Of a stretch of 64,000 nt of DNA, positions 7,587 through 43,083 are shown piece by piece. Source of the DNA: Longimicrobiales bacterium (GTDB taxonomy: Bacteria; Gemmatimonadota; Gemmatimonadetes; Longimicrobiales; Gaopeijiaceae). The stretch is from contig OZ220732.1 of the NCBI GenBank assembly GCA_965116905.1, positions 3,648,001 through 3,712,000 on the forward strand, in the 5' to 3' direction. A program made the position numbers and the translations under genes. Below the pieces are notes generated by a model. That model searched no databases, was not told where the DNA came from, and worked only from the letters and a program-made list of their open reading frames with translations. Within the stretch, counting starts at the first letter, position 1; every line of letters begins with the position of its first letter.

Positions 7587-10358
7587 ATGAGGCATAACGG
7601 CGCGGCGCTGACCCTGACCCTCGACGGGGAAAAGGTCGGCTTCACCCGGGGCGAGACGCTGTACGAGGTGGCCGAACGCCACGGCAGGGACATCCCGACG
7701 CTCTGCTACGATGCCCGGCTCGAGCCCTTCGGCGGCTGCCGCCTGTGCGTCGTCGAGCTGGAGGGGGCCCGCAACCCGGTGGCGTCCTGTACGACGCGGG
7801 CCGAGCCCGGCATGGTCGTGCGCACACGGACCGCGAGCATCGAAGTGCAGCGCCGCATCCTCATGGAGATGGTGGCCTCGGAGAACCGCGAAACCGACGT
7901 GGACCCGATGCACGGCTACGCATCGCAGGAAATGGCCGAGCTTCTCGACCGTTACGATGCCCGGACGGGCCGCTTCGCGGGCGCCACCTCGGGCACAAGC
8001 CGTCCGGACGACGACAACCCCTTCATCAAGCGGGACTACGAGAACTGCATCTCGTGCTACCGTTGCGTGCGGGTGTGCGAGGAGCAGGAGGGCGACTACG
8101 CGATCTCGGTGATGAATCGCGGCTTTCAGACCCAGATCACCACCGAATTCGGCGGCCTGCTGAAGGACTCGGCGTGCACCTTCTGCGGGCAGTGCATCCA
8201 GACGTGCCCCACGGGCGCGCTCGGAGACCTGAAGGCGCTCGCCAACCGGGACGTGCCCGGCGAGACCGAGACGACGCGCACGGTATGCCCGTACTGCGGG
8301 GTCGGTTGCTCTGTCGACGTGATGACGCGCGGCGAGAAGATCGTCGGCGTGCTGCCGGCAATGGACGGACCGGCCAATGAAGGCGCGTTGTGCGTCAAGG
8401 GCCAGTTCGCATTCGACTTCGTGCACCACCCCGACCGCCTTTCCACTCCCTTCGTGCGCGACGACGAGACCGGGGAACTCCGCCCGGCGTCGTGGGACGA
8501 AGCGCTGGACCGGGCCGCGGGGAAGCTGCGCAGGGTCGTGAAGGACCACGGTCGCCACGCCGTCTACGGAATCGCCTCCGGACGCGCGCCCCACGAGGCC
8601 GCCTACATGATGCAGCGCTTCATCAGGGCGGGATTGGGGACGAACCACATCGACAACTGCAGCCGTGCCTGACACGCCCCCACAGTCGCCGGTCTGGCGG
8701 CAACAATCGGAAGAGGGGCGATGTCGAACCCTCTCGCCGACATGGACAAGCCCGATGTGATCTTCTGCATCGGCACCAACATGACCGAGTGCCATCCCGT
8801 TGCCGCCACGCGGCTCAAGAGGGCGCTCGCGCGCGGCGCGAAGATGATCGTAGCGGACCCGCGCCGGATCGGGCTGGCCGAGATCGCCGATGTGCATCTT
8901 CCCATTCGCGTTGGCTCGGACGTGTCCCTGTTGCTGGCGATGGCGCACGTCATCGCCCGCGAGGGACTGGTGAACGAGGAGTTTGTCGGCGCGCGCACGG
9001 CCCACGGCGAGGACTTCCTGAAGCACGTGGAGGAGTACACCCCCGAGTGGGCGTCGGAGATCTGCGAGTGCGACCCGGATGACATCGAGCAGGCCGCGCT
9101 GCTGTACGGCGGGGCCGACCGGGGCGCCATCTACTACACCGTCGGGGTCACCGAGCACATCTGCGGCGTCGACAACGTGCAGAGCCTCTGCAACCTGGCC
9201 CTGATGACCGGCAACCTGGGCCGCGAGGGCACGGGGGTGAACCCCATGCGCGGGCAGAACAACATCCAGGGCGCCGGCGACGCGGGCGCGCTCCCGAACA
9301 ACTATCCCGGCTTCCAGACCGTCACCGATCCAGCTCACCAGGAGAAGTTCCACCAGGCGTACGGGCGCAAGGTCGACCTCGAGACGGGCATGACCAAGGT
9401 CACCGCGCTGGACCTGTGCGGCGACGGCATCCACGCGATGATCATCGACGGCGAGAACACCCTCGTCACCGACCCGGACCGCCACCACTGCGAGCACGCG
9501 CTCAAGAGCCTGGACTGCCTGGTCGTGATCGACATCTTCATGACCGAGACGGCCAAGGTGGCCGATGTGGTGTTCCCGGCCACGGCGTGGGCCGAAACCG
9601 ACGGCGTCTGCACCAACACGGAGCGTCGCGTGCAGCGGTTGCGCGCGGCGGTGCCGCCGCCAGGCGAAGCGAAGCCCGACTGGTGGATCCTGTCGCGCCT
9701 TGCCCGGCGGATGGGCTGGAAGGGCTTCGATTTCGGGTCCGCCAAGGAAGTCTTCAACGAGCTCTGCGCCCTCTCACCCCTCTACAACGGCCTCGACTGG
9801 GACCGGATCGACCGGGGCGAGTATCAGTGGCCGGTGCCCACGCACGATCACCCCGGCACGCCGCGCCTGCACGAGGAGCGCTTCGAAAACGGGCGCGGGA
9901 TCTTCAAGATGCTCGAGTACCGCGACCCCGAAGAGACCCTTTCGGACGACTATCCCATGTGGCTCACGACCGGCCGGCGGCTGCCCCAGTACCACACGCG
10001 GACGCAGACCGGACGCTCGGACGGGATCGACTACCTGCTGTCCGAGGAGACGCTGGAGGTGCACCCCGACGACATCGTGCGCCTCGGGCTGGAGGACGGG
10101 GGCTACGCGGAGTTGAGCAATCCCCGGGGCTGCGTCCATGTGAAGATCCGCGCGACCACCAAGTCGCCGAAGGGGACCGTGTTCGCGTCGTTCGCCTTCG
10201 AGGACGTGCCCGTCAACGTGCTGACCGGCGGCGGCTACGATCCGGTGACGCAGACGGCCGCGCTCAAGGCGTGTCCCGTGGCGCTGAAGCCGGTGGGCCC
10301 GCCGCCCGCGCTCCGCCAGGCGGCCGCCGGGCCGGAAACCGCCGCACCGGCCTGGTAG
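7587..10358 (+). CDS. fdhF: Selenocysteine-containing formate dehydrogenase alpha subunit (about 923 aa, Sec at codon 362)
   Basis: ORFs 7515..8672 and 8721..10358 are in the same frame, separated only by TGA 8670-8672 in the context DNCSRA-U-HAPTVAGL, the Mo/W-ligand position. N-terminal Fe-S motifs, CPYCGVGC and RGQNNIQG are present. Confidence 0.95.
8670..8720 (+). promoter_or_regulatory. SECIS element of FDH alpha
   Basis: After the TGA: stem GTCGCC (8685-8690), loop GGTCT, stem GGCGGC (8696-8701); possible lower stem CGCCCC/GGGGCG. Resembles the E. coli fdhF SECIS arrangement. Confidence 0.85.
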
Positions 10359-11169
10359 CCTTCTTCCTTCGCGCCTCCCGCTGCCTGGCGCGGCGCTTCT
10401 CGACCCGGTCGTACATCTCGCGCATCACCTCGACGATGTCGGGTGCCTTGGCGAGAAAGCGCTCTTCCACGACCCGCTGTATCCCTTCGGGAATGCCGTG
10501 CAGCCCCTCTGCGATCGGGCCCGCGATGGCGGCGAGCGTGTCGGAATCGCCGCCCAGGGAGATCGCGTTGCGGATCGCGTCCTCGAAGCAGGTCGACTCG
10601 AGCGCGCAGGTGATCGCCTCGGGGACCGTGTTCTGGCACGTCTCGTCGAAGCGGTAGAACGTCCGTATGTCGTCCACTGACCGCACGAGGTTGTAGCGGT
10701 AGCGGGCCGTGATCGTCCTCCGGATGACGTGCGCTTCCTCGCCTTCGAGCGCCAGCCAGGTCGCGTGGACGGTCGCCCGCGCCCCCTTGATTCCCTCCGG
10801 GTGGTTGTGCGTGATATTCGTGAGCCGGTCGCAGGCGGCGAGTGCGGCGTCGAGATCGTCGTAGTGCAGAAACGCGGCCGGCGAAATGCGCATCGCGGCA
10901 CCGTTTCCGCAGCTGCCGTAGGGCTCGGGGTGGTCGGACCACATCCAGTCGACGAACCAGCCTCCGTAGGACGCCGGATAGCGGCGGCACCACTTCTGAA
11001 GGGTCTCCGGCGCCCTGCGGTCGTGCAGAAGGATGTCGGCGATCGCGGCCGTGCAGACCGAGTCGTCCGTAAAGTGGCCCTCCGAATGGAACAGGTCGAA
11101 GGTCTTCGTCTTTATCCGGTCCCACTCGTAGACGGACCCGACGACGTCCCCGATGATCGCTCCCCACAT
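10264..11169 (-). CDS. ADP-ribosylglycohydrolase (DraG/ARH family)
   Basis: Motifs [42 protein letters not shown]. Start at MWGAII (11169). Confidence 0.9.
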
Positions 11170-11283
11170 TGTGCATCCCCCTTGCTCGCACTTCACATCC
11201 GCGCCAGACTTGGATCGCCGTTTTTCCCGTCCCGGCGTCACCCAGGCCCAACTGCACGCCCCACACTCTCTCCGATAACTACC

Positions 11284-12959
11284 ATGCTTTCCGACATCGA
11301 AATCGCGCAAGCTCACCGAATGAAACCGATCGCCGAGATCGCCGCCGCCGCGGGGCTCGGTTCGGACGAAATCGTACAGTACGGCCACCACAAGGCCAAG
11401 GTCCCGCTGGACGTGGTTCAGGCGCGTCCCGACCGCGGGGCCAGGCTCGTGCTGGTGACCGGGTGCAGCCCGACCGCCGCGGGCGAGGGCAAGTCCACGG
11501 TCTCGGTGGGCCTCGCCGACGCGCTCAACCTGAGGGAACGCAACCCCGTTCTCTGCATCCGCGAGGCGTCGCTGGGACCCGTGTTCGGGATCAAGGGCGG
11601 AGCAGCCGGGGGGGGCTACTCGCAGGTGGTCCCGATGGAGGACATCAACCTCCACTTCACCGGCGACTTCCACGCGATCACGTCGGCGCATGCGCTGCTT
11701 TCGGCGATGCTCGACAACCACCTCTTCCGGCCGAACAGCACCGGGCTGGACCACCGCCGCATCACCTGGGGGCGCGCCGTCGACATGAACGATCGCGCGT
11801 TGCGGAACGTGATTGTGGGGCTGGGCGGGCCCTTCGGCGGGATACCGCGCGAGGACGGCTTCATGATCACGGCGGCATCCGAGGTCATGGCGATCTTCTG
11901 CCTGGCGCGCGACCTGGCCGACCTGGAGCAGCGGCTGGGCAACATCATCATCGGGTACACGCGGGGCCGCGAGCCCGTGCGCTGCCGCGACATCGGCGCC
12001 CAGAAGGCGATGACGATCCTCATGCGCGACGCGTTGCACCCGAATCTGGTGCAGACGCTCGGGGGCACGCCGGCGTTCATTCACGGGGGACCGTTCGCCA
12101 ACATCGCACACGGGTGCAACTCGCTCATCGCCACCCGCGCGGGGCTCAAGCTCGGCGACATCGTGGTGACCGAGGCGGGCTTCGGGGCCGACCTGGGAGC
12201 CGAGAAGTTCTTCGACATCAAGTGTCGCCTTGGCGGACTCCGTCCCGACGCCGTCGCGATCGTCGCGACCATCCGCGCGCTCAAGATGAACGGGGGAGCA
12301 TCCAGGGACAGCCTGGCGACCGAGGACGTGGACGCGCTCCGGCGCGGCATGGAGAACCTCTACGGCCACGTCGAGAACGTGGCGAAGTTCGGGGTCCCGG
12401 CGGTGGTCGCGCTGAACCGGTTCGCGAGCGACACGGCCGAGGAGGTCGCGACCGTCCTGGACGGCTGCGCGGCACGCGGGATCGATGCCGTCGAGGCCGA
12501 TCCCCACGGCGGTGGCGGAGACGGGTGCGTCGACCTGGCCGACGCCGTCTGGGAGCTGGCCAACAGCGGGGACGCCGATTTCCGGCCCCTGTACCCGGAC
12601 GAGATGCCGCTGAAGGAGAAGATCGAGACCGTGGCGACCGAGATCTACGGATCTACGGCGCGGCGGGGGTGGACTTCCAACCCGGGGTGACCGCGGAACT
12701 GGAGCGCCTCGAGTCCTTCGGGCTGGCCGGCGCCCCCGTTTGCATTGCCAAGACGCAGTACTCGTTCTCGGACAACCCGGCGCTGCTGGGGCGGCCGCGC
12801 GGCTTCCGGATCGCCGTCCGGGAGGTCACGCCGTCGGCCGGCGCGGGGTTCGTGGTCGTGAAGACGGGCTCGATCATGACGATGCCGGGCCTCGCGGCAA
12901 GACCGGCAGCGCTGAACATGACGATCGACGACGACGGGGTGATTTCCGGGCTGATGTAG
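11284..12959 (+). pseudogene. fhs: Formate--tetrahydrofolate ligase, frameshifted by an 8-bp tandem duplication (pseudogene or assembly error)
   Basis: Motifs [35 protein letters not shown] in one frame; the C-terminus (IYGAAGV, CIAKTQYSFSD, IMTMPGL) continues in another frame after GATCTACG GATCTACG at 12642-12657. Confidence 0.9.
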
Positions 12960-12967
12960 GGGGGCTG

Positions 12968-13771
12968 ATGAGCAGGGGTGTTCGGGTCGCGAGTTGGCTG
13001 GCGGCGGTGATCATGATCGCCTACGGCTTCGCGAAGCTGACCGGATCCCAGTTCACCGTGCTGGACTCCGAGCTCACGAAGCCGATGGGCCAGGTGAGCG
13101 GGTTCTGGCTGACCTGGTACTACTTCGGATTCTCCTCCACCTACGGAACGATCATTGCCCTGGTCGAGATCGGCGGCGGGCTGCTGCTGGTCTGGCCGCG
13201 GACCTCCCTGCTCGGCGCACTTGTCCTGTTGCCGGTGGTGGGCAACATCATCCTCACGGACATCCTGTTCGGCGTGGGCGCCCTGCCGGCCTCGGTGACG
13301 GTGCTGGTCTGTCTGCTGATCGTGCTGCGACCGCACGCACGGCGGCTGGCAGAGGCCGTGTTGCTCGAGATCAAGTCGTCCAGAAGAGCCGTAACGCTTC
13401 GAGCGGCCGCTGTTGTGGCCGTACTCGCCGGAGCATGGGGATTCGGCTATTGGGCCGCCAACTACAACAATCGCGAGCCTACCCCGATTGATGGCGTTTG
13501 GACGGTCGAGGACTCGCGCGTCGCGATCGAAGACGACGGGGCACGCCTGCAACGCGTGTTCTTCGAATACAATCGCGCCTACATGGCCGTCTTCCGGTTT
13601 GCCGACGGGGATGCCGTCCACCATTTCGAGGTCGATTCGGGTCGGGTGCGTGTGTGGGAGACGTGGAAGGAAAAGGGCACGTTGATCTACGAAGGTGAGA
13701 TCGTCGACACGGGACGGATCGAGTTGCGGCCAAGTGGAGGCGGCTCTCCGGTCGTGCTGGTCAGGGAGTAG
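12968..13771 (+). CDS. DoxX-like membrane protein with soluble C-terminal domain
   Basis: YGFAKL-x-GSQF, LTWYYFGFS and EIGGGLLL TM pattern. Confidence 0.7.
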   Translation: MSRGVRVASWLAAVIMIAYGFAKLTGSQFTVLDSELTKPMGQVSGFWLTWYYFGFSSTYGTIIALVEIGGGLLLVWPRTSLLGALVLLPVVGNIILTDILFGVGALPASVTVLVCLLIVLRPHARRLAEAVLLEIKSSRRAVTLRAAAVVAVLAGAWGFGYWAANYNNREPTPIDGVWTVEDSRVAIEDDGARLQRVFFEYNRAYMAVFRFADGDAVHHFEVDSGRVRVWETWKEKGTLIYEGEIVDTGRIELRPSGGGSPVVLVRE

Positions 13772-13904
13772 GGGTTGGGACGCAACGCCGACGACCGGAT
13801 GAGTCCCTAGCGCCCCATTCAGCAGGACTGGCGAACGGCACCTCGCTTGCCCAAGTTGTGGCCGCATCAAGCCTGCCGGCCTCCTTTCCCCCCAACCCTT
13901 CCCC

Positions 13905-14162
13905 ATGCCCGACTCCAACGCCTACTGGTCCCGCAACCTCCGCTATCTGGGGATTCTGCTGTCCATCTGGTTCGTGGTGTCCTACGGCTGTGCGATCGTC
14001 TTCGCCGACGCGCTCAACACCATCCGGATTCCGGGGACCGGCTTCAAGCTCGGGTTCTGGTTCGCCCAGCAGGGATCGATCTACGTCTTCGTGGTGCTGA
14101 TCTTCGTGTACGCGCGCCTGATGAACCGGCTGGACAGGGAGTTCGGGGTGGCCGAGGAATGA
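13905..14162 (+). CDS. DUF4212 small membrane subunit associated with solute:sodium symporters
   Basis: AYWSRNLR and GFWFAQQGSIYVF; lies directly upstream of an actP-like gene. Confidence 0.88.
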   Translation: MPDSNAYWSRNLRYLGILLSIWFVVSYGCAIVFADALNTIRIPGTGFKLGFWFAQQGSIYVFVVLIFVYARLMNRLDREFGVAEE

Positions 14163-14245
14163 GGGGCCGCCCGAACAGGCCACCCGTCCGGGTCTTGCCA
14201 GTTCCGAGCATACGGCGCGCCCTGACCCCGCGGCACGGCTAGCCC

Positions 14246-15937
14246 ATGGACGTCCGACTCTGGACCTTCATCATGGTGGGGATCTCGTTCGCCCTCTATA
14301 TCGGGGTGGCGATCTGGTCCAGGGCCGGCTCCACCAAGGACTTCTACGTGGCCGGCACCGGCGTGTCGCCCCTCGCCAACGGGATGGCCACGGCGGCGGA
14401 CTGGATGTCGGCGGCGTCCTTCATCTCGATGGCCGGACTGATCTCGTTCATGGGGTACGACGGCTCAGTCTACCTGATGGGATGGACGGGTGGCTACGTC
14501 CTGCTGGCCATGCTGCTGGCGCCCTATCTGCGGAAGTTCGGCGCATACACGGTGCCGGAGTTCGTGGGGCAGCGTTACTACTCGCAGGTGGCACGGGTGG
14601 TGGCGGTGGCGTGCGCGATCTTCGTCTCGTTCACGTATGTCAGCGGCCAGATGCGCGGCGTGGGCATCGTCTTCAGCCGCTTCCTGGAAGTGGACGTGAC
14701 CGTCGGCGTGGTCATCGGGATGGGGATCGTCTTCTTCTACGCCGTTCTGGGCGGGATGAAGGGCATCACCTACACCCAGGTCGCGCAGTACTGCGTGCTG
14801 ATCTTCGCCTACATGGTGCCGGCGTTTTTCCTGGCGATCATGCTGTCGGGGACGTTCATCCCCCAGTTCGGATTCGGGGGCGCGGATCCTGTCAGCGGCG
14901 TCTTCCTCCTCGACAAGCTGGACGGACTCCACCAGGAGTTGGGCTTCACGCCGTATACGGACGGCACCAAGTCGATGATCGACGTGTTCTTCATCACGGC
15001 CGCGCTCATGGTGGGCACGGCCGGGCTGCCGCACGTGATCATCCGCTTCTACACCGTGCCCAAGGTGCGGGACGCGCGGATTTCCGTGGGCTGGGCGCTG
15101 CTCTTCATCGCGATCCTCTACACGACCGCGCCCGCGGTGGCGGTGTTCGCGCGCGCCAACCTGCTGGACACCGTGGCCGGACAGCCGTACGCGGAGATGC
15201 CCGAGTGGTTCAGCAAGTGGGAGGACACCGGGCTGATCACCTACGAGGACAAGAACGGCGACGGCAACATCCAGTACGTTGGCGACGCGGCCACAAACGA
15301 ACTCACGATCGACCGCGACATCATGGTCCTCGCGAACCCCGAGATATCGCGCCTCCCCAACTGGGTGGTGGGACTGGTGGCCGCGGGCGGACTGGCGGCG
15401 GCGCTGTCGACGGCGGCGGGCCTGTTGCTGGTGATCTCGTCGGCGATCAGTCACGACCTGCTGAAACGGGCGTGGAAACCGGACATATCGGAGAAGGGTG
15501 AACTGCGGGCGGCCCGGATCAGTGCGGCCTTCGCCGTGGTCGTGGCGGGCCTGCTCGGGATCTACCCCCCGGGCTTCGTGGCGCAGATCGTGGCGTTCGC
15601 GTTCGGCCTGGCCGCATCCTCGTTCTTCCCCGTGATCATCCTGGGGACGTTCACTCGCACGATGAACCGCGAGGGGGCGATCGCGGGCATGCTTTCGGGC
15701 ATCACCTTCACCGCCGCGTACATCATCTACTTCCGCTTTGTGAACCCGGCGGCGGACTCGCCCGAGAACTGGTGGTTCGGCATTTCGCCCGAAGGGATCG
15801 GCACCGTCGGAATGCTGCTCAACTTCGCGGTCGCGTTTGCGGTGTCGAAGTTCACGCCGTCGCCGCCGGCAAGCGTCCGTGAGCTCGTCGACCGCATCCG
15901 CGTGCCCGGGACGATCAGGACGGGAGGCGGGTCGTGA
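14246..15937 (+). CDS. actP: Cation/acetate symporter (ActP-like, SSS family)
   Basis: Motifs NGMATAADWMSAASF, GGMKGITYTQVAQY, GTAGLPHV, AAALSTAAGLLL. Confidence 0.85.
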   Translation: MDVRLWTFIMVGISFALYIGVAIWSRAGSTKDFYVAGTGVSPLANGMATAADWMSAASFISMAGLISFMGYDGSVYLMGWTGGYVLLAMLLAPYLRKFGAYTVPEFVGQRYYSQVARVVAVACAIFVSFTYVSGQMRGVGIVFSRFLEVDVTVGVVIGMGIVFFYAVLGGMKGITYTQVAQYCVLIFAYMVPAFFLAIMLSGTFIPQFGFGGADPVSGVFLLDKLDGLHQELGFTPYTDGTKSMIDVFFITAALMVGTAGLPHVIIRFYTVPKVRDARISVGWALLFIAILYTTAPAVAVFARANLLDTVAGQPYAEMPEWFSKWEDTGLITYEDKNGDGNIQYVGDAATNELTIDRDIMVLANPEISRLPNWVVGLVAAGGLAAALSTAAGLLLVISSAISHDLLKRAWKPDISEKGELRAARISAAFAVVVAGLLGIYPPGFVAQIVAFAFGLAASSFFPVIILGTFTRTMNREGAIAGMLSGITFTAAYIIYFRFVNPAADSPENWWFGISPEGIGTVGMLLNFAVAFAVSKFTPSPPASVRELVDRIRVPGTIRTGGGS

Positions 15938-18138: not shown

Positions 18139-18152
18139 GAAAGCCCGACCCG

Positions 18153-26066: not shown

Positions 26067-26651
26067 TTGGCCTGGATCGAGGAAATCCCGCCCACCGAGG
26101 CCACCGGACTCCTCCGAAGGGAGTTCGACGCGGCCGTGGCGCGCTCCGGTCGCGTCTGGAACATCGTGCAGGTGATGAGCCTGAACGCGCCGGTCCTCAG
26201 GGCCACCATGGCGCAGTACGGCGCCATCATGTTCGGTCCGTCCCCCCTGTCCAGATTCCAGCGCGAGCTTCTGGCCACGGTGGTCTCGGCCGAGCTGGAC
26301 TGCTTCTACTGAACCCAGGCGCACGCGCATGACCTCCGGGCAGAGGTCGAGGAGATGGGCATGGACGAAGGGGAGGGCGACCGGCTCGTGCACCGGATCG
26401 TGGCCGGGTGGCGCGAGGCGCCGCTCTCGCCGGCCGACCGGGCCCTGTGCGAGTACGCTGCGCGGCTGACCGCCAAACGGACCGTCATGACCGAGACCGA
26501 TCTGGACCGGCTGCGCGGCGAGGGTCTGAGCGACCGGGCAATCCACGACGCCATCCAGGTCATCGCGTTCTTCAACTACATCACGCGGGTGGCGGATGGC
26601 CTGGGAGTGCAGCCGGAGACCTTCATCGACAAATGGGGGCTGGACGAGTGA
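26067..26651 (+). CDS. AhpD/carboxymuconolactone-decarboxylase-like peroxidase-related selenoprotein (CxxU, about 194 aa, Sec at codon 82)
   Basis: ORFs 26067..26312 and 26355..26651 are in the same frame, joined by TGA 26310-26312 in LSRFQRELLATVVSAELD-CFY-U-TQAH (family motif CxYCxxxH). C-terminus FNYITRVADGLGV. Confidence 0.88.
26310..26349 (+). promoter_or_regulatory. Putative SECIS element of the AhpD-like gene
   Basis: Perfect stem GACCTC (26331-26336) / GAGGTC (26343-26348) with loop CGGGCA, starting 19 nt after the TGA. Confidence 0.72.
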
Positions 26652-34117: not shown

Positions 34118-34176
34118 GGGAATCGGGGACCGGGCGGTAGGCTGCACGTTGCGTGTTGGTGTGGAATCGCCCGAAA

Positions 34177-34192: not shown

Positions 34193-34212
34193 AATATCCG
34201 CAACCCTGGGGC

Positions 34213-34257
34213 CCGTGGGTCCGCTGGTCGGCCCGTCCGTGGGTCCGCTGGTCGGCC
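34213..34257. repeat. Intergenic direct repeat, 21 bp x2, period 24
   Basis: CCGTGGGTCCGCTGGTCGGCC at 34213-34233 and 34237-34257. Confidence 0.85.
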
Positions 34258-34311
34258 GGAGTTGGCCAGACCCGCGCGAACACCTATTCTAGATGGATGG
34301 GAGGACAGAGT

Positions 34312-34845: not shown

Positions 34846-34882
34846 AGCAGGCTCCCTCAGCCCCGGCTGACCACGCGCGCGG

Positions 34883-34898
34883 CGTTTCAGCTGAAACG
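34883..34898. repeat. Perfect 16-bp palindrome CGTTTCAGCTGAAACG (parS-like), copy 1
   Basis: Lies between convergent genes; second copy at 53274-53288. Function is inferred only. Confidence 0.6.
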
Positions 34899-34916
34899 TG
34901 TTTCCGGGAGTTCCGG

Positions 34917-36206
34917 CTACTTGTTGATCCGGTACATCCGCACGTACTGAACGTCCAGTTCGTCGGTCCAGACGCCGAGGATGTAGTCCTCTCCGATCTC
35001 CATGTAGGGTGCCTGGTACTGGACGAAGGCGCGCTCGAGGCCGGGGGGCAACGACACGCTGCCCAGCCAGGAGCCGTCGGGGGCGTGGACCTCGAAGGGC
35101 GGGGGTTCGGCGCCGGCGACGTAGTAGGGCTGTAGCCAGAGGTGTCCGGTGGCGTCGACGTGGATGGAGCGGAGGACGGGGAGTTGTGGTGCTCGCGGCC
35201 GGTCACGCCACATTCGGCGTAACCCCTCCACATCTTCTGGCGCGGCGGCGTCCGGATCCGGAAATGCGATTGCCACAATACCGTCCAGATGGAGGTTGAG
35301 GAGGGCGCCGGTCACTTCGCGTGGAGCTACGTCGCGCCGGTAGACCGCGGTGATCGCGGCGTCACGTGGGGAGACCAGACGGACTGACCAGGCTTCGGTG
35401 TCGATCACCGCGACACGTCCTGCTGCGGCACCGTACTCCGGCCCCTTGAAGAACACGTACGAGCTGATCGACCAGCGTCCTCCCTCTCGCACGCGCACCT
35501 CCGCTTCGTGGCCTGGCAAGACCATCAGGGACCTGGCATTGCCATCCGAAAGGTCCGCCGCTGCCAGACGTTCCAGGGGCCAGCGCACGATGCCGGTGGG
35601 CATCTCGTTGCTGTCGCCATACTCGATGAAGCGGAGGATCAGCAGGCCGTCCACGACACCTACCGCCTTGTCGGCTGCAGCGGTCCGGCCAGCGGTCTCG
35701 CCGTCGGTCAGGGCCACCCGCAGCGTCCTCGCCGGGTCGCCGTCCGGCCCGAAAACCTGCGCGTGCATCAGCGCGGCGTCGTAGGTCACCAAAGAATCAC
35801 CAGTCGTGGTTCCGAGGAAGTCCAGGCTCTCGAACTCGCCGGGGCCCTGTCCGAATCTTCCCGCGCGCCACCGGAAGGTCCCTGCTGCGTCGTAGCTCCG
35901 CAGTTCCGAAGCGCCGCGGTCCGCGACCACGATGTCGCCGTTGCCCAGGCGCACTGCGGCCACGACTTCGCTGAACTGGTACTCGAGGGCGCCGGTCACC
36001 GTGCCGATCTCGACGACGGGCTCCGGGTCAACCGTCCAGGCGTCATCGGGTCCCCAGATCGGGGCGACGGCGGTGACGATGGGGATCCCGGCGGAGTCGT
36101 TGTGTAGAATGTGTAAAGTATGTATTTCGTCCGAGTCGCAGGCGGTTGATGCGATCAGGCCTGCCAGAGCGAAGGATGCCACGAGTGCTCGTCCGGGGTC
36201 GGGCAT
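34917..36206 (-). CDS. 6-bladed beta-propeller (NHL-like) lipoprotein, paralog A
   Basis: Lipobox LIASTAC; GRFGQGPGEF, DATGHLW and DELDVQYV motifs. Confidence 0.82.
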   Translation of the reverse strand: MPDPGRALVASFALAGLIASTACDSDEIHTLHILHNDSAGIPIVTAVAPIWGPDDAWTVDPEPVVEIGTVTGALEYQFSEVVAAVRLGNGDIVVADRGASELRSYDAAGTFRWRAGRFGQGPGEFESLDFLGTTTGDSLVTYDAALMHAQVFGPDGDPARTLRVALTDGETAGRTAAADKAVGVVDGLLILRFIEYGDSNEMPTGIVRWPLERLAAADLSDGNARSLMVLPGHEAEVRVREGGRWSISSYVFFKGPEYGAAAGRVAVIDTEAWSVRLVSPRDAAITAVYRRDVAPREVTGALLNLHLDGIVAIAFPDPDAAAPEDVEGLRRMWRDRPRAPQLPVLRSIHVDATGHLWLQPYYVAGAEPPPFEVHAPDGSWLGSVSLPPGLERAFVQYQAPYMEIGEDYILGVWTDELDVQYVRMYRINK

Positions 36207-36213
36207 TGGCCGG

Positions 36214-37512
36214 CTACTTGTTGATCCGGTACATCCGCACGTACTGAACGTCCAGTTCGTCCGTCCACACGCCGAGGATGTAGTCCTCTCCGATCTCCAT
36301 GTAGGGCGCCTGGTACTGGATGAATGCGCGCTGGAGGCCGGGGGGCAGGGATACGCTGCCAAGCCACGTGCCATCGGGCGCGTGGATCTCGAAGGGAGGG
36401 GGGTCGGCGCCGGCCACGAAGTAGGGCTGTAGCCAGAGGTGTCCGGTGGCGTCGACGTGGATGGAGCGGAGGACGGGGAGCACCGGGGCTCTGGGGAAGT
36501 CGCGCCACATCTGTTGAACGCGACCGACTTCCTCGCGGGGAACGTCGCCGATCATGTCCATGATACCGGCCAGATGCTCTTCGAAGATGGCGTTGGTCAC
36601 CTCCCGCGGCGCCACGTCGCGCCGCACGATCCGCTCGATGGTGCCGTCGGCCGGGGAGAGCACGCGGACCGTGTAGGCTTCGGTATCGATGACGGCGACG
36701 CGGTCAGCAGCAGCTCCGAATTCGGGCACGTTGCCAAAGGCGTACCGGCCCCCCCTGCGGCCGCCCCGAAAAAAGACCTCCTCGCCGGCGACCACAATCA
36801 GGTCATTGGCCAAGCCGTCCCCCAGTGCGATAGCCACCGGGCGTTCGTCGACCCACCGCACGGCACCGCTTGTCCCTTGGTCGCCCAGTTCAGCGAAGCG
36901 AACGATGAGTTGGCGTCCCACAACGCCGACGGCCTTGTCAGGACCCGACAGGTCCTCCGGGGATGGCGTGCCGCCGCCAGGATCGGGGTCGAATCGCTGC
37001 GGACGCACGTCGAAGCTCCGCGCCATTTGCCCCCCGGCATCGAAAAGCTGCACGCGCATCAGTTCTCGGTCGTAGGTCACCAGCGAATCGCCGGTCGTGC
37101 TTCCGAGAAAGTCCAGGCTCTCGAACTCGCCCGGACCCTGTCCGAATCTTCCTGCGCGCCACTGGAAGGTCCCTGCTGCGTCGTAGCTCCGCAGTTCCGA
37201 GGCGCCGCGGTCCGCGACCACGATGTCGCCGTTACCCAGGCGCACCGCGGCCACGACTTCGCTGAACTGGTACTCGAGGGCCCCGGTCACCGTCCCGATC
37301 TCGACGAGGGGCTCCGCGTCGACCGTCCAGGCGTCGTCGGGTTCCCAGATCGGGGCGACGGCGGTGACAATGGGGATCCCGGCGGAGTCGTTGTGTAAAA
37401 TGTGTAAAGTATGTATTTCGGCGGGGTCGCAGGCGGTGGCTGTGAGCAGGATCGCGGTCGCGGCTGCGGTGGTCGCGAAGGACACGATGGGCCCTTGGGC
37501 GGGCGCGTTCAT
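36214..37512 (-). CDS. 6-bladed beta-propeller lipoprotein, paralog B
   Basis: Lipobox LLTATAC; N- and C-terminal blocks nearly identical to paralog A. Confidence 0.82.
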   Translation of the reverse strand: MNAPAQGPIVSFATTAAATAILLTATACDPAEIHTLHILHNDSAGIPIVTAVAPIWEPDDAWTVDAEPLVEIGTVTGALEYQFSEVVAAVRLGNGDIVVADRGASELRSYDAAGTFQWRAGRFGQGPGEFESLDFLGSTTGDSLVTYDRELMRVQLFDAGGQMARSFDVRPQRFDPDPGGGTPSPEDLSGPDKAVGVVGRQLIVRFAELGDQGTSGAVRWVDERPVAIALGDGLANDLIVVAGEEVFFRGGRRGGRYAFGNVPEFGAAADRVAVIDTEAYTVRVLSPADGTIERIVRRDVAPREVTNAIFEEHLAGIMDMIGDVPREEVGRVQQMWRDFPRAPVLPVLRSIHVDATGHLWLQPYFVAGADPPPFEIHAPDGTWLGSVSLPPGLQRAFIQYQAPYMEIGEDYILGVWTDELDVQYVRMYRINK

Positions 37513-38639
37513 GCCGGCTCCGGCACGAGTTGGGCGGTGATCGGGTTCACCAGTGCGCCCACGCTGGGGACATCCAACTCATCCCTGGCCACGCCGTACA
37601 GGAGGTCGCCCCGCACGTCCGTGAGCCTGAACCGCTCGGGGAGGATCACCACCCACTTCCGCATCGTCTCGATATCGACGACGACCCAGTGCCCCCGCTC
37701 GTCGTCAACGCCCTGGCGCAGCCAGAACACATGATCGCCGGCGGGGACGAGGCGTGTCGCGACGGACCAGTATTCGGGTGCGTCGATCTCGATTTCTCGG
37801 GGCAGATCCCGACTGGTGCCTTCCCTGATGTCCCGCTCCACGTCATCCAGGTCCCGCTCCGTAACCGCTCGTCCCGCGAATCCCAGGTCGACGGTGTCGG
37901 CTCGGATTGAAGCCGCTTCCGGTGAGACGATCGTGATTTCACCATTGACACCGTCGCCGATAACGACGGCGGTATCTCCGAGAACGCCCCACGCTCCGGA
38001 CGCGCCGAAATGGGTGTTCTGGACAGCTCCCACCACGTCCGTCGTCCAACCCGCCGCTCCCCAGTTGAAGGAGAGGAGCGTGTCGGCAGACTCGCCTCCG
38101 GGTGCCACAAGAACGACGTGGTTTCGCAAATCGTAGACGACATCTCGCGAGAAGGAGACCCGGTAGTTTGCGGGGATCATGCCGACCGTGAAACCACCCT
38201 GCAGAGGTACCGCATCGACGAGTGGCTTCTCGCCCCCACCCGGGTCGGCGAAGTGGCGGGCCCGCACCGTTTCCAGGTGGCGACCGTCCAGCCGGTAGCG
38301 GACGTACCGGCCTTGTCGGGAATCGCCGACCGTGAGTATGGAGTCGATGCTGACGATTCCCGGGGTCATCCATTCACCGGGCCCGCTCCCCTCCCGGCCA
38401 TAGCGGGACAGCAGGTCCCCACCGGTGTCGAACCACAGGACTTCGTTGTTCCCGGGGTCTGCGACCCATATCCCGAGGTCGTTGACCACGACATCTCCGA
38501 TCCTGGCGAAGAAGCCGCCGTCGTATTCCGCAGGGACGACGGTGGCAATCGGGTCCCCGGACAGGTCCAGGGTGTCCATCTGCGCCGACGCCGGCTGTGC
38601 GCCCGCGACCAGCAGGAACACGACTGTCCAGCTTCTCAT
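37509..38639 (-). CDS. 6-bladed beta-propeller exported protein, divergent paralog C
   Basis: Signal peptide; GREGSGPGEW and DELDVPSV motifs; ATGA overlaps with both neighbours. Confidence 0.78.
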   Translation of the reverse strand: MRSWTVVFLLVAGAQPASAQMDTLDLSGDPIATVVPAEYDGGFFARIGDVVVNDLGIWVADPGNNEVLWFDTGGDLLSRYGREGSGPGEWMTPGIVSIDSILTVGDSRQGRYVRYRLDGRHLETVRARHFADPGGGEKPLVDAVPLQGGFTVGMIPANYRVSFSRDVVYDLRNHVVLVAPGGESADTLLSFNWGAAGWTTDVVGAVQNTHFGASGAWGVLGDTAVVIGDGVNGEITIVSPEAASIRADTVDLGFAGRAVTERDLDDVERDIREGTSRDLPREIEIDAPEYWSVATRLVPAGDHVFWLRQGVDDERGHWVVVDIETMRKWVVILPERFRLTDVRGDLLYGVARDELDVPSVGALVNPITAQLVPEPA

Positions 38640-41600
38640 CCCGGCCACCTCGGAATCGGCCGGCCCGGGGTCCACGGCACGCCCGCGGCCTCCATTTCCG
38701 CTTCCAGCGCGGCCAGGTCGCCCTCCACCAGCGCCCGCAGCGCCTCCGACATCTCGGCCAACTGCGCCGACGCCACCGCGTAGCTGTCGCGCTGGGTGGT
38801 TGTGGGCGCGGACGTCGCCCTGAACTGCGCCCCCACGACGCGCGAGACGCGCTGCATGACCGACGGGGGCGCGAACTCGGCCCGATCAAGCGCGGTGCGG
38901 TCGCGCGACAGCACGCGCCGGATCTCGAAGAGCCGCGCCTCGAAGGCGGTGATGCGCGTCTCGTAGGGGGCCGCATCCATGCCGGGAGCGGCGCGCACCG
39001 CACGGCGTAGCAGTGTCAGCCGCTCCGAGGTCTCCCTCGCCGCGCGGTCCACCGCGACGGCGGCCCGCTGCAACTCGGCGACCTCGCGCTGGAAGGCCAG
39101 CAGCGCGTCGCGGTCGGCGGCGGCGAGGGTGGCTGTGCCGAGCGGCTTCACGGTGAAGGACCGGGGCGCGGTGAGATCCTCGTGGCCGTCGCCGGTCACC
39201 AGGACGACTCGCGCCGAGAACTCGCCGGGGGCCACCATGGGGCCATCCGCCTCGCCGCCCCCGGGCGAAGGCGGCTGCAGCGACGCGTACCGCAGGTCCC
39301 AGGCAATGCGGTGCAGCCCCGCCCTTCCCGGAGCGGGCACGCGCCGCACCACATCGCCCGCCGCGTCGGATACCACCACGAACACCTCGGGCGGCCGTTC
39401 CATGTCTTCGGCGGTCAGCGTGGCCTGGTCGGGGTAGGCAATGTCTTCGCCCCGTGCCAGGGCCTCCCGCTCCAGCCGCTGGCGCTGCTCCTTCAGCGAC
39501 TCGTAGCCGTCGCGCAGGTAGTAGGTGAATACGGCGCCGAAGGGCGGGTTGGGTGCCGTGAAGAAGGCGTCGCCAAATGTCCCCTTCTGCTGGCCGCCCA
39601 GCGGCCGCGCCGGGATGTAGGCCCAGGGGTCCTTCACGGGGAAGAAGTGGGCGGCGACCGACACGCGGGCGGCGGCCGACGGGCCGGCGGCACCTGCGTC
39701 GCCCGCCGCACCCGGTTCGCTGGCCGCGCCCGCCACCGCCTCGTCCATCTCGCGGAGTGGCGAGTAGTCGTCCAGGATGTAGAAGCCGCGGCCGAAGGTC
39801 GCGAGCACGAGGTCGTCCTCACGGCGCTGGATCTCGAGGTCGCGCACCGCGATCGTCGGCAGTCCTCCGCGCAGGCGCACCCACGAGGTGCCTCCGTCAC
39901 GCGTCACGAAGAGCCCGAACTCGGTGCCCAGGAAGAGCAGGTCCGGGTCGACGTGGTCCTCCATGAGCGTCCAGGTCGACTGCCCGTCGGGGACGTCTCC
40001 GGTGATGTTCGTCCAGCTCGCGCCCCGGTCGTCGCTCCGCGCCACGTACGGCGTGAAGTCCCCCTCCTTGTGGTTGTTGAAGACGGCGTAGACCCGGTCC
40101 GCCATGTGCCGGGACGCCACCACGTCGGCCACGTACGCTCTCGCAGGCACACCGGGAAAGGCCTCCTGCCGGCGCCACCCGCCACCTCCGTCCTCGCTCA
40201 CCTGCACGAGTCCGTCATCCGTGCCTACATACAGCAGCCCTTCGGCCAGGGGCGACTCGTCGAGCGCCACGATCGTGCCGTAGGGGGAAGTGAAGACGTT
40301 CTTCCAGACGGCCTCGGGCGGCCAGATCCGGCCCATCACCGGCCGCTGGTTGCGGTCGAGCCCGCGGCTGAGGTCCCCGCTGACGGCGGTCCACGTCTCG
40401 GCACGGTCGTCGGAGCGGAAGAGCTTCTGGGCCGCGAAGTAGATGCGGCGCGAGTTGTGCGGGCTGATGATCAGCGGCGAGTCCCAGTGCCAGCGGAGCG
40501 CCCCCTCCCCCGCCTCCGGCTGCGGCTGGATGTCCAGCTCCTCGCCGCTCGCCCGGTCGTAGCGGACGATGCCCGCATACTGGGACTGCGTGTAGACGAT
40601 GTTCGGGTCGTCCGGATCGACGCGCGCCTGGAACCCGTCGCCGCCGTGGGTGATGAACCAGTCGCTGTTGCGGATCCCGTGCACGTTGTCGGTGCGCGAC
40701 GGCCCGCCCACGGAGGAGTTGTCCTGCGTGCCGCCGTACACCGTGTAGAAGGGCGACATGTTGTCGATGCCGACGCGGTAGAACTGCATCAGCGGCATGT
40801 TGCCGGAGACGTAGCGCCAGGTGCGGGTGCCGTCGAAGGTCTCGTAGAGCCCGCCGTCGCTGCCGACCAGCATGTAGTCGGGGTCGTCCGGGTCGAAGAC
40901 GATCTCGTGGTTGTCGACGTGCTTGAAGCGCGTGTTGACCTGGTCGAAGGTGCGGCCCCCGTCGTTGGTGACGTGGATGATCACGTCCACCGCGTAGACC
41001 CGGTCCATGCGGTGGGGGTCCGGGTAGAGCTCGCCGTAGTACTGCGGGTCGACGACGATGTAGTCCGACATGCGCACCCACGTCTCGCCCCGGTCGGGGG
41101 AACGGTAGAAGCCGCTCCGGTCCTCGGTGGCGGCGGCATTTGCGTAGAGCACGTCCGGGTCAATGGGGGAAACGGCCAGCGCGATGCGGCCGAGGTCGCC
41201 GGCCGGCAGCCCGCTCGTGATGTCGCGCCAGGTCTCGCCGCCGTCGGTACTCTTCCAGACGCCGGACTCGGGCCCGCCGGCGACGAGCACTCCGACGTGG
41301 CGGCGCCGCTGAAAGGCCACCGCGTATAGCACGTCGGGGTCGCGCGGGTCGAGGTGCACGTCCGCGATGCCGGTGTTTTCGCTGATCTCCAGCACCGGGG
41401 TCCAGGTGGCGCCGCCGTCGGTGGTCTTGAAGAGGCCGCGGTCGCCGCCGGGAGCCCACAGCCCGCCCATGGCCGCCGCGTACACCACGTCCGGGTCGCG
41501 CGGATCGATCAGGATCTGGCCGATGTGCTCCGAGGTCCCCAACCCCGTGTTGGTCCAGCTGCGCCCGCCGTCGAGGCTCTTGTAGACGCCGTCGCCCCAG

Positions 41601-41968
41601 CCGACGCTGCGCTGGCTGGTGTTCTCGCCGGTCCCGAGCCAGATCACGTTCGAATCGGTGGGATCGATGGCGATGGAGCCGGTGGAGTAGGACGGATAGT
41701 CGTCGAAGATGGGCGTCCAGGTCGTGCCGCGGTTCTCGGTCTTCCACACGTTCGACGAGGAGGTCGCGACGTACCAGACGCTCCGGTTGGAGGGGTCGAC
41801 CGCCACGTCCGCGATCCGGCCGGACATGAAGGCCGGTCCGATGCCGCGGAGTTCTAGGGCGGAGAGGAGGGCCTCGTCGACGGCGGGGGATTGGGCGTGG
41901 AGCGGGGCTAAGGTGGTGCAGAGGGCGGCCGCGAGGGTGAGGGTGGTGGTGGTGGTGAAGCGACTCAT
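38636..41968 (-). CDS. VPS10/BNR-repeat glycosyl hydrolase-like exported protein
   Basis: Signal peptide; IGPAFMSGRI; many Asp-box repeats (SxDGGxTW); C-terminal coiled coil. Confidence 0.88.
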   Translation of the reverse strand: MSRFTTTTTLTLAAALCTTLAPLHAQSPAVDEALLSALELRGIGPAFMSGRIADVAVDPSNRSVWYVATSSSNVWKTENRGTTWTPIFDDYPSYSTGSIAIDPTDSNVIWLGTGENTSQRSVGWGDGVYKSLDGGRSWTNTGLGTSEHIGQILIDPRDPDVVYAAAMGGLWAPGGDRGLFKTTDGGATWTPVLEISENTGIADVHLDPRDPDVLYAVAFQRRRHVGVLVAGGPESGVWKSTDGGETWRDITSGLPAGDLGRIALAVSPIDPDVLYANAAATEDRSGFYRSPDRGETWVRMSDYIVVDPQYYGELYPDPHRMDRVYAVDVIIHVTNDGGRTFDQVNTRFKHVDNHEIVFDPDDPDYMLVGSDGGLYETFDGTRTWRYVSGNMPLMQFYRVGIDNMSPFYTVYGGTQDNSSVGGPSRTDNVHGIRNSDWFITHGGDGFQARVDPDDPNIVYTQSQYAGIVRYDRASGEELDIQPQPEAGEGALRWHWDSPLIISPHNSRRIYFAAQKLFRSDDRAETWTAVSGDLSRGLDRNQRPVMGRIWPPEAVWKNVFTSPYGTIVALDESPLAEGLLYVGTDDGLVQVSEDGGGGWRRQEAFPGVPARAYVADVVASRHMADRVYAVFNNHKEGDFTPYVARSDDRGASWTNITGDVPDGQSTWTLMEDHVDPDLLFLGTEFGLFVTRDGGTSWVRLRGGLPTIAVRDLEIQRREDDLVLATFGRGFYILDDYSPLREMDEAVAGAASEPGAAGDAGAAGPSAAARVSVAAHFFPVKDPWAYIPARPLGGQQKGTFGDAFFTAPNPPFGAVFTYYLRDGYESLKEQRQRLEREALARGEDIAYPDQATLTAEDMERPPEVFVVVSDAAGDVVRRVPAPGRAGLHRIAWDLRYASLQPPSPGGGEADGPMVAPGEFSARVVLVTGDGHEDLTAPRSFTVKPLGTATLAAADRDALLAFQREVAELQRAAVAVDRAARETSERLTLLRRAVRAAPGMDAAPYETRITAFEARLFEIRRVLSRDRTALDRAEFAPPSVMQRVSRVVGAQFRATSAPTTTQRDSYAVASAQLAEMSEALRALVEGDLAALEAEMEAAGVPWTPGRPIPRWPG

Positions 41969-42190
41969 GCGTGGCCTCGGTTTCGGTTGCGGCTGGATTC
42001 GGCGCGTTCAGCTAGCAGGATGCTTCCGGTGGCACGCCCCCGCAATCACCGCCGAACCGGCACCCTACCGCGTCTTCGCCTCGCCGATGTTGTTTCGCGC
42101 CAACGAGAGCGCGCGTCCCGGGGGTCAGGGGGCTGACGCTGGACGGTGCGGGCGGTCCGGCGCTCGGCGTCGGCAACCACACGCGCTTAA

Positions 42191-42207
42191 CTGGCACTCC
42201 TCGTGCG
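42191..42207 (+). promoter_or_regulatory. Possible sigma54 -24/-12 promoter
   Basis: CTGGCAC-TCCTC-GTGC fits GG-N10-GC; no annotated plus-strand gene follows directly. Confidence 0.35.
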
Positions 42208-42351
42208 CATATCTCTATAAGTTACTGTTTGGTAGTAATTTACAATGTGCGCACAAATGCCGCCGCGACGATCATATTGCCGTCCAACTGACAAAGACAC
42301 TGAAGGGGTCGTCTCGCCCTTACTGGACTGATGCGATCGCGAACCCCGCAA

Positions 42352-43083
42352 TCATCCCAGCTCCCAGAACTCCCCGCTCAACCCCGCGTCCCGCAGCAGC
42401 GCCTGCCTGGCCCGGGCCGAATACGGCCGCCATGCGTCGTCGAGCCGCCCCGCGTACCAGTCGTGGCTCAACTCGCCCAGCACCTCGACCGGGACGATGG
42501 CGCCGGGATCCCCGCCCCGCCCCCGCTCCCACGCTCTCGCATCCGCTTCCGACCGGAAGGCCACGATGTTGCGTCAGGTGAAGCCGATGTCGTCCCAGAA
42601 GTCGCGCACGGGCACGGCCAGGCGGACAACGGCTCCGCGAGGCCCGGCCCGGCCACGCGTCATGGTCAGGTCGAAACGCGTGCCCGACTGGGGACAGCTG
42701 GCGCGCGTCCGGCCATCGGTGTCGAGAAGCAGGGGAATCGCCAGCGCGTCCCAGGCGCAGTTCGCCCAATACGCGGCGGCAGGCGTCTCGACCCGGTACG
42801 GCGTGGGCACAGCCGAGAACGGGTGGGCCATCCAGACTTCGCCGCGTCGATCCAGCGCCAGCACGCGGGCGTCGGCGAGGAAGCGAAGGGCCCCCTCGAT
42901 CCCGGTTTCGGCCGCGCCAGTTTCGACTGCGCCAGTTCCGGCCGCGCCGGTTTCGGCCGCGCCGAGGTCGGCGGCAAGCTCGGCGGCGAGTTCGGCGCGC
43001 GATGGCACCGTCCCGGTGTCCCGGATCCGGCGGTAGAGGTGGCCGCGCAGGCGCCAGGCGAAGGCTTCGGCGGGCGCGGTCAT
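42352..43083 (-). CDS. merB: MerB-like organometallic (alkylmercury) lyase selenoprotein (about 243 aa, Sec at codon 170)
   Basis: AHPFSAVPTPYRV, WANCAWDAL (MerB Cys96/Asp99 equivalent), SCPQSG, then FWDDIGFT-TGA-RNIVAFRSEADARAW in frame with ORF 42352..42564. The TGA (42574-42576) sits at the position equivalent to the second catalytic Cys. Confidence 0.82.
42537..42576 (-). promoter_or_regulatory. Putative SECIS element of the MerB-like gene
   Basis: Minus strand: TGA CGCAACATCGTGGC CTTCC GGTC GGAAG CGGATGCG. Upper stem CTTCC/GGAAG with GGTC loop 20 nt after the TGA; lower CATC/GATG pairing. Confidence 0.7.
42902..42961. repeat. In-frame 15-bp tandem repeat x4 in the MerB-like gene
   Basis: CCGGTTTCGGCCGCG / CCAGTTTCGACTGCG / CCAGTTCCGGCCGCG / CCGGTTTCGGCCGCG, encoding AAETG-AAGTG-AVETG-AAETG. 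Confidence 0.9.

What the first reader, a model, noticed from the sequence alone, without database searches (positions are those of the whole stretch)
8670..42576. Three Sec-UGA genes in about 34 kb share a SECIS core, defining a lineage SECIS model
Seen: the hairpins after the three TGAs read GTCGCC-GGTCT-GGCGGC (FDH), GACCTC-CGGGCA-GAGGTC (AhpD-like) and CTTCC-GGTC-GGAAG (MerB-like). All contain CCGG(T/G)C, with the first loop G 19, 26 and 20 nt after the TGA. Inference: the organism is selenoprotein-rich, and this motif could be used to find further unannotated selenoproteins across the genome.
Basis: partly seen in the sequence, partly recalled or inferred. Interest (0 to 1): 0.7.

Follow-up and report, generated by a model that had tools for sequence, protein, structure and literature searches.

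The report
Three real selenoproteins, no lineage SECIS

Summary
In detail: three in-frame TGAs with hairpins at +19, +26 and +20, in a Gemmatimonadota genome with selA, selB, selC and selD. The interpretation does not. I found 12 predicted selenoproteins; CCGG(T/G)C fits the 3 seed genes and 0 of the other 9, and 3 of 224 rule-positive TGAs are Sec sites. All 12 show the published G[G/U]-loop bacterial SECIS form. The motif follows the gene family, not the lineage.

FDH-alpha and the AhpD-like protein are known selenoprotein families. The MerB-like gene ([FY]T-U, U at MerB Cys159) is not SaoL (24 versus 140 bits; no CU). Its TGA is present in 80 of 80 best loci from at least seven phyla, with CCGGTC at +20 in 75. 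In Chloroflexota, selA accompanies 15 of 15 TGA and 1 of 9 Cys members. 117 of the 120 best database homologues stop at that codon. I did not find it in the catalogues I could read. This scan noted it before on other DNA (16 earlier findings). No readthrough or enzyme activity was measured.

The parts
7587..10358 (+). Formate dehydrogenase alpha subunit gene, predicted selenoprotein (NCSRA-U-HAP, U = residue 362)
   Evidence: One frame when TGA is read through; TIGR01591 732.9 bits, over the 666.25 cut-off. FdhD, MobA-MobB and a NuoEF-type partner lie upstream.
8670..8672 (+). In-frame TGA of fdhA, predicted Sec codon
   Evidence: same U-H-x-P motif as E. coli fdhF
8685..8701 (+). SECIS-type hairpin GTCGCC-GGTCT-GGCGGC, loop G at +19
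   Evidence: E. coli fdhF has the same GGTCT at +19 but no CCGG
26067..26651 (+). AhpD-like (CMD family) gene with CFY-U (CxxU), predicted selenoprotein; likely TTG start
   Evidence: TGA at this site in 27 of 27 loci parsed, from 30 fetched (this gene and its orthologues)
26310..26312 (+). In-frame TGA of the AhpD-like gene
26330..26349 (+). SECIS-type hairpin TGACCTC-CGGGCA-GAGGTCG, loop G at +26
   Evidence: second loop base varies G/T among orthologues
42352..43083 (-). MerB-like gene of the [FY]T-U branch, predicted selenoprotein, 243 aa from the ATG at 43083 (another ATG at 43122); C109, D112, C130 and U170 align with MerB C96, D99, C117 and C159
   Evidence: AlphaFold model pLDDT 93.6, best Foldseek hits all MerB/MerB2
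42574..42576 (-). In-frame TGA of the MerB-like gene
   Evidence: TGA in 80 of 80 best related loci
42546..42559 (-). SECIS-type hairpin CTTCC-GGTC-GGAAG, loop G at +20, coding F-R-S-E

Best explanation
Three unlinked genes each carry an in-frame UGA that is likely read as selenocysteine, directed by an ordinary bacterial SECIS hairpin in the coding sequence just downstream. SelB would bind the small G[G/U] loop 18-34 nt after the UGA and deliver Sec-tRNA (established mechanism; inferred here, not measured). The letters CCGG(T/G)C shared by the three loops are not a lineage code. They arise where the general G[G/U] loop meets a C-G closing pair in a 68% GC genome, within the codons each protein allows (A-G-L, L-R-A, F-R-S), and the genome's other nine predicted Sec genes use other loops. 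The MerB-like gene belongs to a wide, stand-alone branch in which Sec likely replaces the Cys159-equivalent metal ligand while Cys96 and Asp99 equivalents are kept. It most likely binds a soft metal and cleaves a metal-carbon bond as MerB does; substrate and activity are untested.
For: Machinery: tRNA-Sec; selB, selA and selD over their cut-offs, selD itself with a TGA; SelB has both winged-helix domains. The U sites sit at Cys/Sec catalytic motifs of the matching families. Seven of the nine were found without any hairpin filter. MerB-like branch: TGA in 80 of 80 best loci, loop G at +20 in 77, CCGGTC in 75. CGG-TCG codons in 75 of 77 loci against 9.6 expected from the same genes' codon use. 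Pairs +16/+27, +17/+26 and +18/+25 hold in 80 of 80, with 4 C-G, 53 T-A and 23 T-G at +16/+27. selA is over the cut-off in 49 of 50 carrier genomes tested. In Chloroflexota, 15 of 15 TGA members are in selA genomes with the +20 hairpin; of 9 TGC members, 1 is in a selA genome and 0 have that hairpin. 51 of 61 cluster representatives that run past the site have Cys there.
Against: No protein-level or ribosome evidence of readthrough. The generic rule's thresholds were set after seeing these hairpins, and it fires at 14% of true TGA ends, so 12 of 12 is partly circular; ArsC and UGSC were first found with a hairpin filter. SelD's best G-loop hairpin is far out at +34, and a closer one at +16 has a CAG loop. 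One Cys-coding canonical MerB (L029) also has CCGGTC at +20, so the codons alone can give the motif. selA is common in the lineages sampled (110 of 151 in one class; 37 of 50 Chloroflexota without the gene), and kin are not independent. For function: no MerA over the cut-off (best 371.9 of 454.45 bits, not identified further) and no conserved neighbours, which does not point to mercury resistance.
Confidence: 0.88

Rival explanations
1. CCGG(T/G)C is the lineage's SelB recognition core and can be used to find its selenoproteins.
For: Present in 3 of 3 seed genes; with a stem it is rare after true TGA stops, 6 of 1921. Kept in 19 of 19 MerB-like members that span the site among relatives and in 20 of 27 AhpD loci.
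Against: 0 of 9 held-out Sec genes; 3 of 224 rule-positive TGAs are Sec sites. 7 of 27 AhpD loci in the same search break it. The MerB-like form is identical in Actinomycetota, Chloroflexota, Acidobacteriota and others, so it is not lineage-bound. E. coli fdhF shares GGTCT at +19.
Confidence: 0.04
2. The CCGG(T/G)C hairpins are a stronger subclass of SECIS that gives these genes priority for selenium, while the other nine are weaker.
For: Near-total nucleotide fixation in the MerB-like branch, beyond what the protein needs; FDH has the E. coli-type loop.
Against: AhpD orthologues swap GG for GT freely; other hairpins in the genome are as stable or more so; no expression or binding data.
Confidence: 0.06
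3. The TGAs are real stops (split genes, pseudogenes or assembly errors), or UGA is a general sense codon in this genome.
For: Gene callers and databases split all three; many MerB-like relatives have a Met codon shortly after the TGA; 2 full-length representatives show W at the site.
Against: TGA ends 872 of 1458 long training genes, so it is the main stop codon. The site is TGA, never TAA or TAG, in 80 of 80 loci and alternates with TGC according to selA presence. The break falls on the catalytic Cys, and the joined protein folds as one MerB.
Confidence: 0.02

Closest known systems
Bacterial SECIS consensus model as given in PMC13188914 section 5 and Fig. 2A legend
   Same: 3-9 nt apical loop, G in the first two loop positions followed by G or U, 16-37 nt from the UGA, in the coding region. 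All 12 hairpins have such a loop at +18 to +34.
   Different: Nothing essential. The three seed hairpins add a CC before the loop. I did not compute the model's -7.5 kcal/mol criterion in its published form; apical stems alone range from -4.1 to -10.2.
Formate dehydrogenase alpha (UHxP) and AhpD-like/CMD-like (CxxU) selenoproteins, Table 1 of PMC13188914
   Same: Same motif, same family models over cut-off; FDH loop GGTCT at +19 as in E. coli fdhF.
   Different: None of note. The AhpD-like protein is below the cut-off of the longer NF041238 CFYUT model (69.8 of 175 bits).
SaoL, MerB-like organometallic lyase selenoprotein (NF040728; Haft and Gwadz, 10.1101/2022.07.06.499078)
   Same: PF03243 fold; Sec aligned with MerB Cys159; Cys96 and Asp99 equivalents kept; truncated at the UGA in databases.
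   Different: TU not CU; 24.5 bits against a cut-off of 140; no conserved nine-gene SAO neighbourhood; found in Gemmatimonadota, Actinomycetota, Chloroflexota, Acidobacteriota and others, whereas SaoL is described from anaerobes.
MerB / MerB2 organomercurial lyase (PDB 3F0O, 5C17; NF033555, NF009710)
   Same: Fold (Foldseek E 5.3e-10, TM about 0.55); C96, D99, C117 and C159 positions all matched.
   Different: Sec predicted at position 159; about 20% identity; below both NCBIfam cut-offs (36 of 200, 42 of 193); longer C-terminal part; no mer operon genes nearby and no MerA over cut-off.

Membership tests
Bacterial SECIS element | Hairpin in the coding region, 16-37 nt after an in-frame UGA, loop 3-9 nt with G in position 1-2 followed by G/U | tested here: met
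   3 of 3 window hairpins and 12 of 12 in the genome; thresholds of my rule were set after seeing them
Bacterial SECIS element | Genome encodes SelA, SelB, tRNA-Sec and SelD | tested here: met
Bacterial SECIS element | Binds SelB and drives Sec insertion | not testable with these tools
   needs binding or reporter assay
Lineage-specific SECIS core CCGG(T/G)C | Shared by the organism's other Sec genes | tested here: not met
   0 of 9 held-out genes
Lineage-specific SECIS core CCGG(T/G)C | Confined to, or typical of, this lineage | tested here: not met
   same CCGGTC in 75 of 80 MerB-like loci from at least seven phyla; varies among AhpD orthologues
Formate dehydrogenase alpha selenoprotein | TIGR01591 over cut-off and UHxP motif | tested here: met
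   732.9 versus 666.25 bits; U-H-A-P
AhpD-like selenoprotein | TIGR01926 over cut-off and CxxU motif | tested here: met
   122.1 versus 81.8 bits; C-F-Y-U
SaoL (NF040728) | HMM score over 140 bits | tested here: not met
   24.3-24.5 bits; best E-value among 41 aligned relatives 1.4e-17
SaoL (NF040728) | CU dipeptide at the Cys159 site | tested here: not met
   T-U here; 117 of the 120 best homologues end in FT or YT
SaoL (NF040728) | Nine-gene SAO neighbourhood | tested here: not met
   neighbours are DoxX, a BNR-repeat protein and an ABC transporter; no conserved neighbours in 80 loci. The genome-wide SaoB search found nothing but its control rang nowhere, so it adds little.
MerB organomercurial lyase | MerB fold and C96/D99/C117/C159 positions | tested here: met
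   position 159 is the UGA
MerB organomercurial lyase | Equivalog models over cut-off; mer operon or merA context | tested here: not met
   36 of 200 and 42 of 193 bits; no MerA over cut-off; no mer genes called nearby
MerB organomercurial lyase | Cleaves Hg-C bonds | not testable with these tools
   needs enzyme assay

The most novel reading that the evidence does not exclude
The MerB-like gene is one member of a large, uncatalogued selenoenzyme family, with two-Sec sister branches, that cleaves methylmercury or another organometal in uncultured sponge, soil and groundwater bacteria without a mer operon. Because databases cut it at the UGA, merB surveys that require Cys159 miss this whole pool of demethylators, and its phylum-spanning UUCC-GGUC-GGAR hairpin is a near-universal SECIS that many different SelB proteins read.
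Probability: 0.2. Interest if true: 0.75.

Novelty: new variant of a known kind. Interest (0 to 1): 0.4.

Why it matters
The proposed lineage motif should not be used for gene finding: it would miss three quarters of this genome's predicted selenoproteins. What is worth keeping is an annotation gap. A MerB-like branch with predicted Sec at a catalytic ligand is spread over many phyla, stored as truncated 'organomercurial lyase' fragments, and has no model of its own in NCBIfam 20.0. If it is active on organomercury, surveys that screen MerB by Cys159 (the signature used in PMC8261052) undercount potential demethylators. If it acts on another organometal, it points to undescribed selenium-dependent chemistry. 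The scan has already flagged this family on other genomes, so this window adds a Gemmatimonadota member and controls, not a first sighting.

Tried and rejected
Rfam at gathering thresholds found nothing in the window. The published-style SECIS rule is too loose alone at 68% GC: 645 of 3194 pre-filtered TGAs passed. Rejected Sec candidates: genome +584793 (the YpdA model ends at residue 312, before the TGA); many TGAs followed by an in-frame start of the next gene; repeated-element stops seen only as TGA-TGA pairs; -2525838/-2524995, -3802124, +1900035 and -2062641 (no convincing frame; judged by eye). Family searches of the genome showed no internal stop in rhodanese (8 matches) or thioredoxin (5 matches), and no Rdx match. 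A double-TGA pass and a C-terminal pass gave no new candidate by eye. The list of 12 is a lower bound; small or atypical genes can be missed. Sequencing runs: contigs of a sponge metatranscriptome (X3) cover the MerB-like gene of a related strain, but contigs cannot show transcription or readthrough; small-share runs were not used. The tree is the quick one, has no SaoL row, and seven Cys rows (L127, L140, L142, L143, L149, L150, L151) carry a wrong _U label; it only suggests that Cys and Sec members are intermixed. No read check of the fhs break was obtained. Haft and Tolstoy 2025 (PMC12013261) and the journal version of Haft and Gwadz (PMC9879109) were not held. No complex prediction was run.
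Full report
Observation. Read through, the frames are formate dehydrogenase alpha (7587-10358, +), an AhpD-like protein (26067-26651, +) and a MerB-family protein (43083-42352, -). The genome is one 4.21 Mb contig of 67.7% GC. Names of the closest homologues and record titles place it in Gemmatimonadota. It has tRNA-Sec and selB, selA and selD over their curated cut-offs, selD with an internal TGA. TGA is the main stop codon, 872 of 1458 long training genes, so this is not a reassigned code.

The genome's selenoproteome. I trained a dicodon model and examined 87,938 TGAs. Besides the three window genes I accept nine (genome coordinates of the TGA): two OsmC-like (-1254176, +169688), three Prx-like (-3903242, -3912652, -1303924), a second AhpD-like (-3369960), SelD (+641802), ArsC-like (-3713653) and UGSC-like (+3311187). 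Four came from coding potential alone, two from paralogue alignment, one from an HMM, and two from a pass that used a hairpin filter; those two also appear in a motif pass without it. HMM matches span the TGA for the three Prx-like and both AhpD-like genes. NCBIfam gives ArsC 109.5 bits (cut-off 85), UGSC 110.9 (cut-off 125), OsmC1 31.9 (cut-off 95) and nothing for OsmC2, which rests on its alignment to OsmC1 and on coding scores. All these families are in Table 1 of PMC13188914. Twelve is a lower bound.

Test of the lineage model. Motif alone: 3 of 12 Sec sites, 83 of 1921 true TGA ends, 168 of 5000 random places. Motif plus stem: 3 of 12, 6 of 1921, and 224 of 87,938 TGAs, of which 3 are Sec sites. 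On the nine genes not used to define it, both rules score 0 of 9. A plain G[G/T]-loop hairpin scores 12 of 12 against 270 of 1921; its thresholds were set after seeing these hairpins. This is the published consensus: G in the first two loop positions, often followed by G or U, 16-37 nt from the UGA (PMC13188914 section 5). E. coli fdhF has the same GGTCT at +19 without the CC. In 27 AhpD loci parsed from 30 fetched, the six bases are CCGGGC 20, CCGTGC 5, CCGGGA 1 and CCGAGC 1, which is the G[G/U] pattern. The genes are somewhat clustered (P = 0.039 for 3 in 34 kb, 0.004 for 4 in 57 kb, post hoc). They are on different strands with unrelated genes between, so they are not an operon.

The MerB-like gene. 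C109, D112, C130 and U170 align with MerB C96, D99, C117 and C159 (numbering from passages of PMC8261052 and 10.1101/2022.07.06.499078). The model has pLDDT 93.6 and its 11 Foldseek matches at E up to 0.001 are all MerB or MerB2. Among 61 related genomes, 21 match. All 19 branch members that span the site have TGA and CCGGTC; the twentieth spanning hit is a Cys MerB in a mer-type cluster, which also has CCGGTC at +20 but not the same stem. Of the best 120 of 374 database homologues, 117 end in FT or YT just before the codon and 3 continue with TC. Of the best 150 of 1161 cluster representatives, 88 end at or before the site (81 in T; 85 keep C-x-x-D), 61 run past it (51 Cys, 6 other, 4 gapped) and 1 is the C-terminal piece. 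All 80 have TGA with 64-89 open codons behind; the best hairpin has its G at +20 in 77 and CCGGTC occurs in 75. Titles span Gemmatimonadota, Actinomycetota, Chloroflexota, Acidobacteriota, Marinimicrobia, Calditrichota and KSB1. The search pattern lay about 60 codons upstream, so it did not select the hairpin. The Arg-Ser in the loop is CGG-TCG in 75 of 77 loci against 9.6 expected, and against 583 of 5367 Arg-Ser pairs in this genome. Three stem pairs hold in 80 of 80.

Controls for Sec. selA is over the cut-off in 49 of 50 carriers tested, 50 of the 80 having been sent. In a 151-genome draw from the class of G065, all 12 close TGA carriers are among the 110 with selA (P = 0.019); I saw the site in sequence for 4 of the 12. 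In a 301-genome draw from the phylum of G069 (Chloroflexota), 37 matched and 24 had close members (E below 1e-55). Fifteen have TGA: all have selA and the +20 hairpin, 14 with CCGGTC. Nine have TGC: one has selA and none has the +20 hairpin (Fisher P = 1.2e-5, overstated because kin are not independent). selA was in 37 of 50 genomes of that draw without the gene.

How it likely works. Shown: in-frame TGA at conserved catalytic positions, conserved hairpins under synonymous constraint, co-occurrence with sel genes. Inferred from established knowledge: SelB binds the loop and inserts Sec. Inferred from homology: FDH uses Sec as a Mo/W ligand, the AhpD-like protein uses CxxU for thiol-type redox chemistry, and the MerB-like protein uses Cys, Asp and Sec to bind a soft metal and cleave a metal-carbon bond. 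The last step is the weakest: there is no MerA over the cut-off, the neighbours are DoxX, a BNR-repeat protein and an ABC transporter, and no neighbour family occurs in more than 8 of 80 loci.

Comparison and novelty. The SECIS form and two of the three proteins are known. The MerB-like protein works like SaoL on paper but fails its tests: 24 versus 140 bits, TU not CU, no SAO neighbourhood. NCBIfam 20.0 gave no dedicated model for it or for 40 aligned relatives. What I read: PMC13188914, abstract, section 5 and parts 1-2 of 3 of section 7 with the full table, which lists only SaoL (CU) for this fold; 10.1101/2022.07.06.499078, passages and section 13; passages of PMC9312934, whose MerB-like representative is the same accession as SaoL's, PMC7435645 and PMC8261052. 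Term searches gave no MerB in the main texts of PMC2398784, PMC13326102, PMC12013277, PMC13745706 and PMC5029168. Supplements: PMC5029168 lists 'Organic mercuric lyase MerB2' in 17 organisms without showing me which branch; PMC2398784 gave no MerB; the PMC13326102 file was cut and gave no MerB. Library searches were made, seen as listings. Two papers that could bear on novelty were not held, and BSepDB itself could not be queried, so 'uncatalogued' is limited to these sources. This scan had noted the family before: 16 findings in at least 16 other genomes, 8 shown; I looked after my own analysis, and they are leads, not support.

Verdict. Real features, ordinary SECIS elements, no lineage model. 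The residual interest is a known-fold selenoprotein variant with wide spread and unknown substrate. Interest 0.4.

Noticed in passing
L146:239-994(-), L147:1471-2178(+), L152, L153, L156:1931-2623(+), L155:1711-2355(+); L154:1762-2484(-): MerB-like genes with two in-frame TGAs, at both the Cys96 and Cys159 equivalents, each followed by a G[G/T]-type hairpin (6 loci in 4 genomes); L154 has Cys at the first site and TGA at the second. In L155 the second hairpin keeps the GGTC loop with a T-A closing pair. All are PF03243, all below the NCBIfam MerB and SaoL cut-offs. The scan noted this type before.
   Followed up: partly
window 11284-12959: Formate-tetrahydrofolate ligase gene just after fdhA is in two frames (Pfam positions 2-459 and 462-556), with a short tandem duplication at the break near 12640-12660. 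Real frameshift or assembly error is undecided.
   Followed up: partly
L032:4331-4702(-) (genome 3713653, 1.7 kb past the window end): ArsC-family selenoprotein (U-T-S-C, NF041106 over cut-off); a fourth Sec gene within 57 kb, with a GTT loop and no CCGG.
   Followed up: yes
L025:980-2094 and L029 (genome G042): One relative has the TGA-type MerB-like gene abutting an acetyltransferase-like gene (resemblance to arsenic-related GNAT enzymes is recalled, not tested), and separately a Cys MerB in a mer-type cluster. A similar acetyltransferase-like neighbour recurs in 2 of 80 other loci.
   Followed up: no
window 26310 and 42576; relatives G001, G003, G005, G007, G009, G014, G016, G020, G021, G025, G027, G029, G030, G036: The AhpD-like and MerB-like Sec genes stay on one contig about 13-23 kb apart in these genus members: conserved synteny without an operon.
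   Followed up: no
genome C1:1296478-1298432: An array of 17 tRNA genes in 2 kb on one strand.
   Followed up: no
L004 (genome 641802): SelD's nearest strong hairpin (+16) has a CAG loop without an early G; the G[G/T]-loop hairpin lies at +34. Which one acts as SECIS is open.
   Followed up: no
L033:2425-3903(+): A 493-aa gene with a C-x-x-C near its start, directly upstream of the UGSC-like Sec gene; no Pfam match.
   Followed up: no
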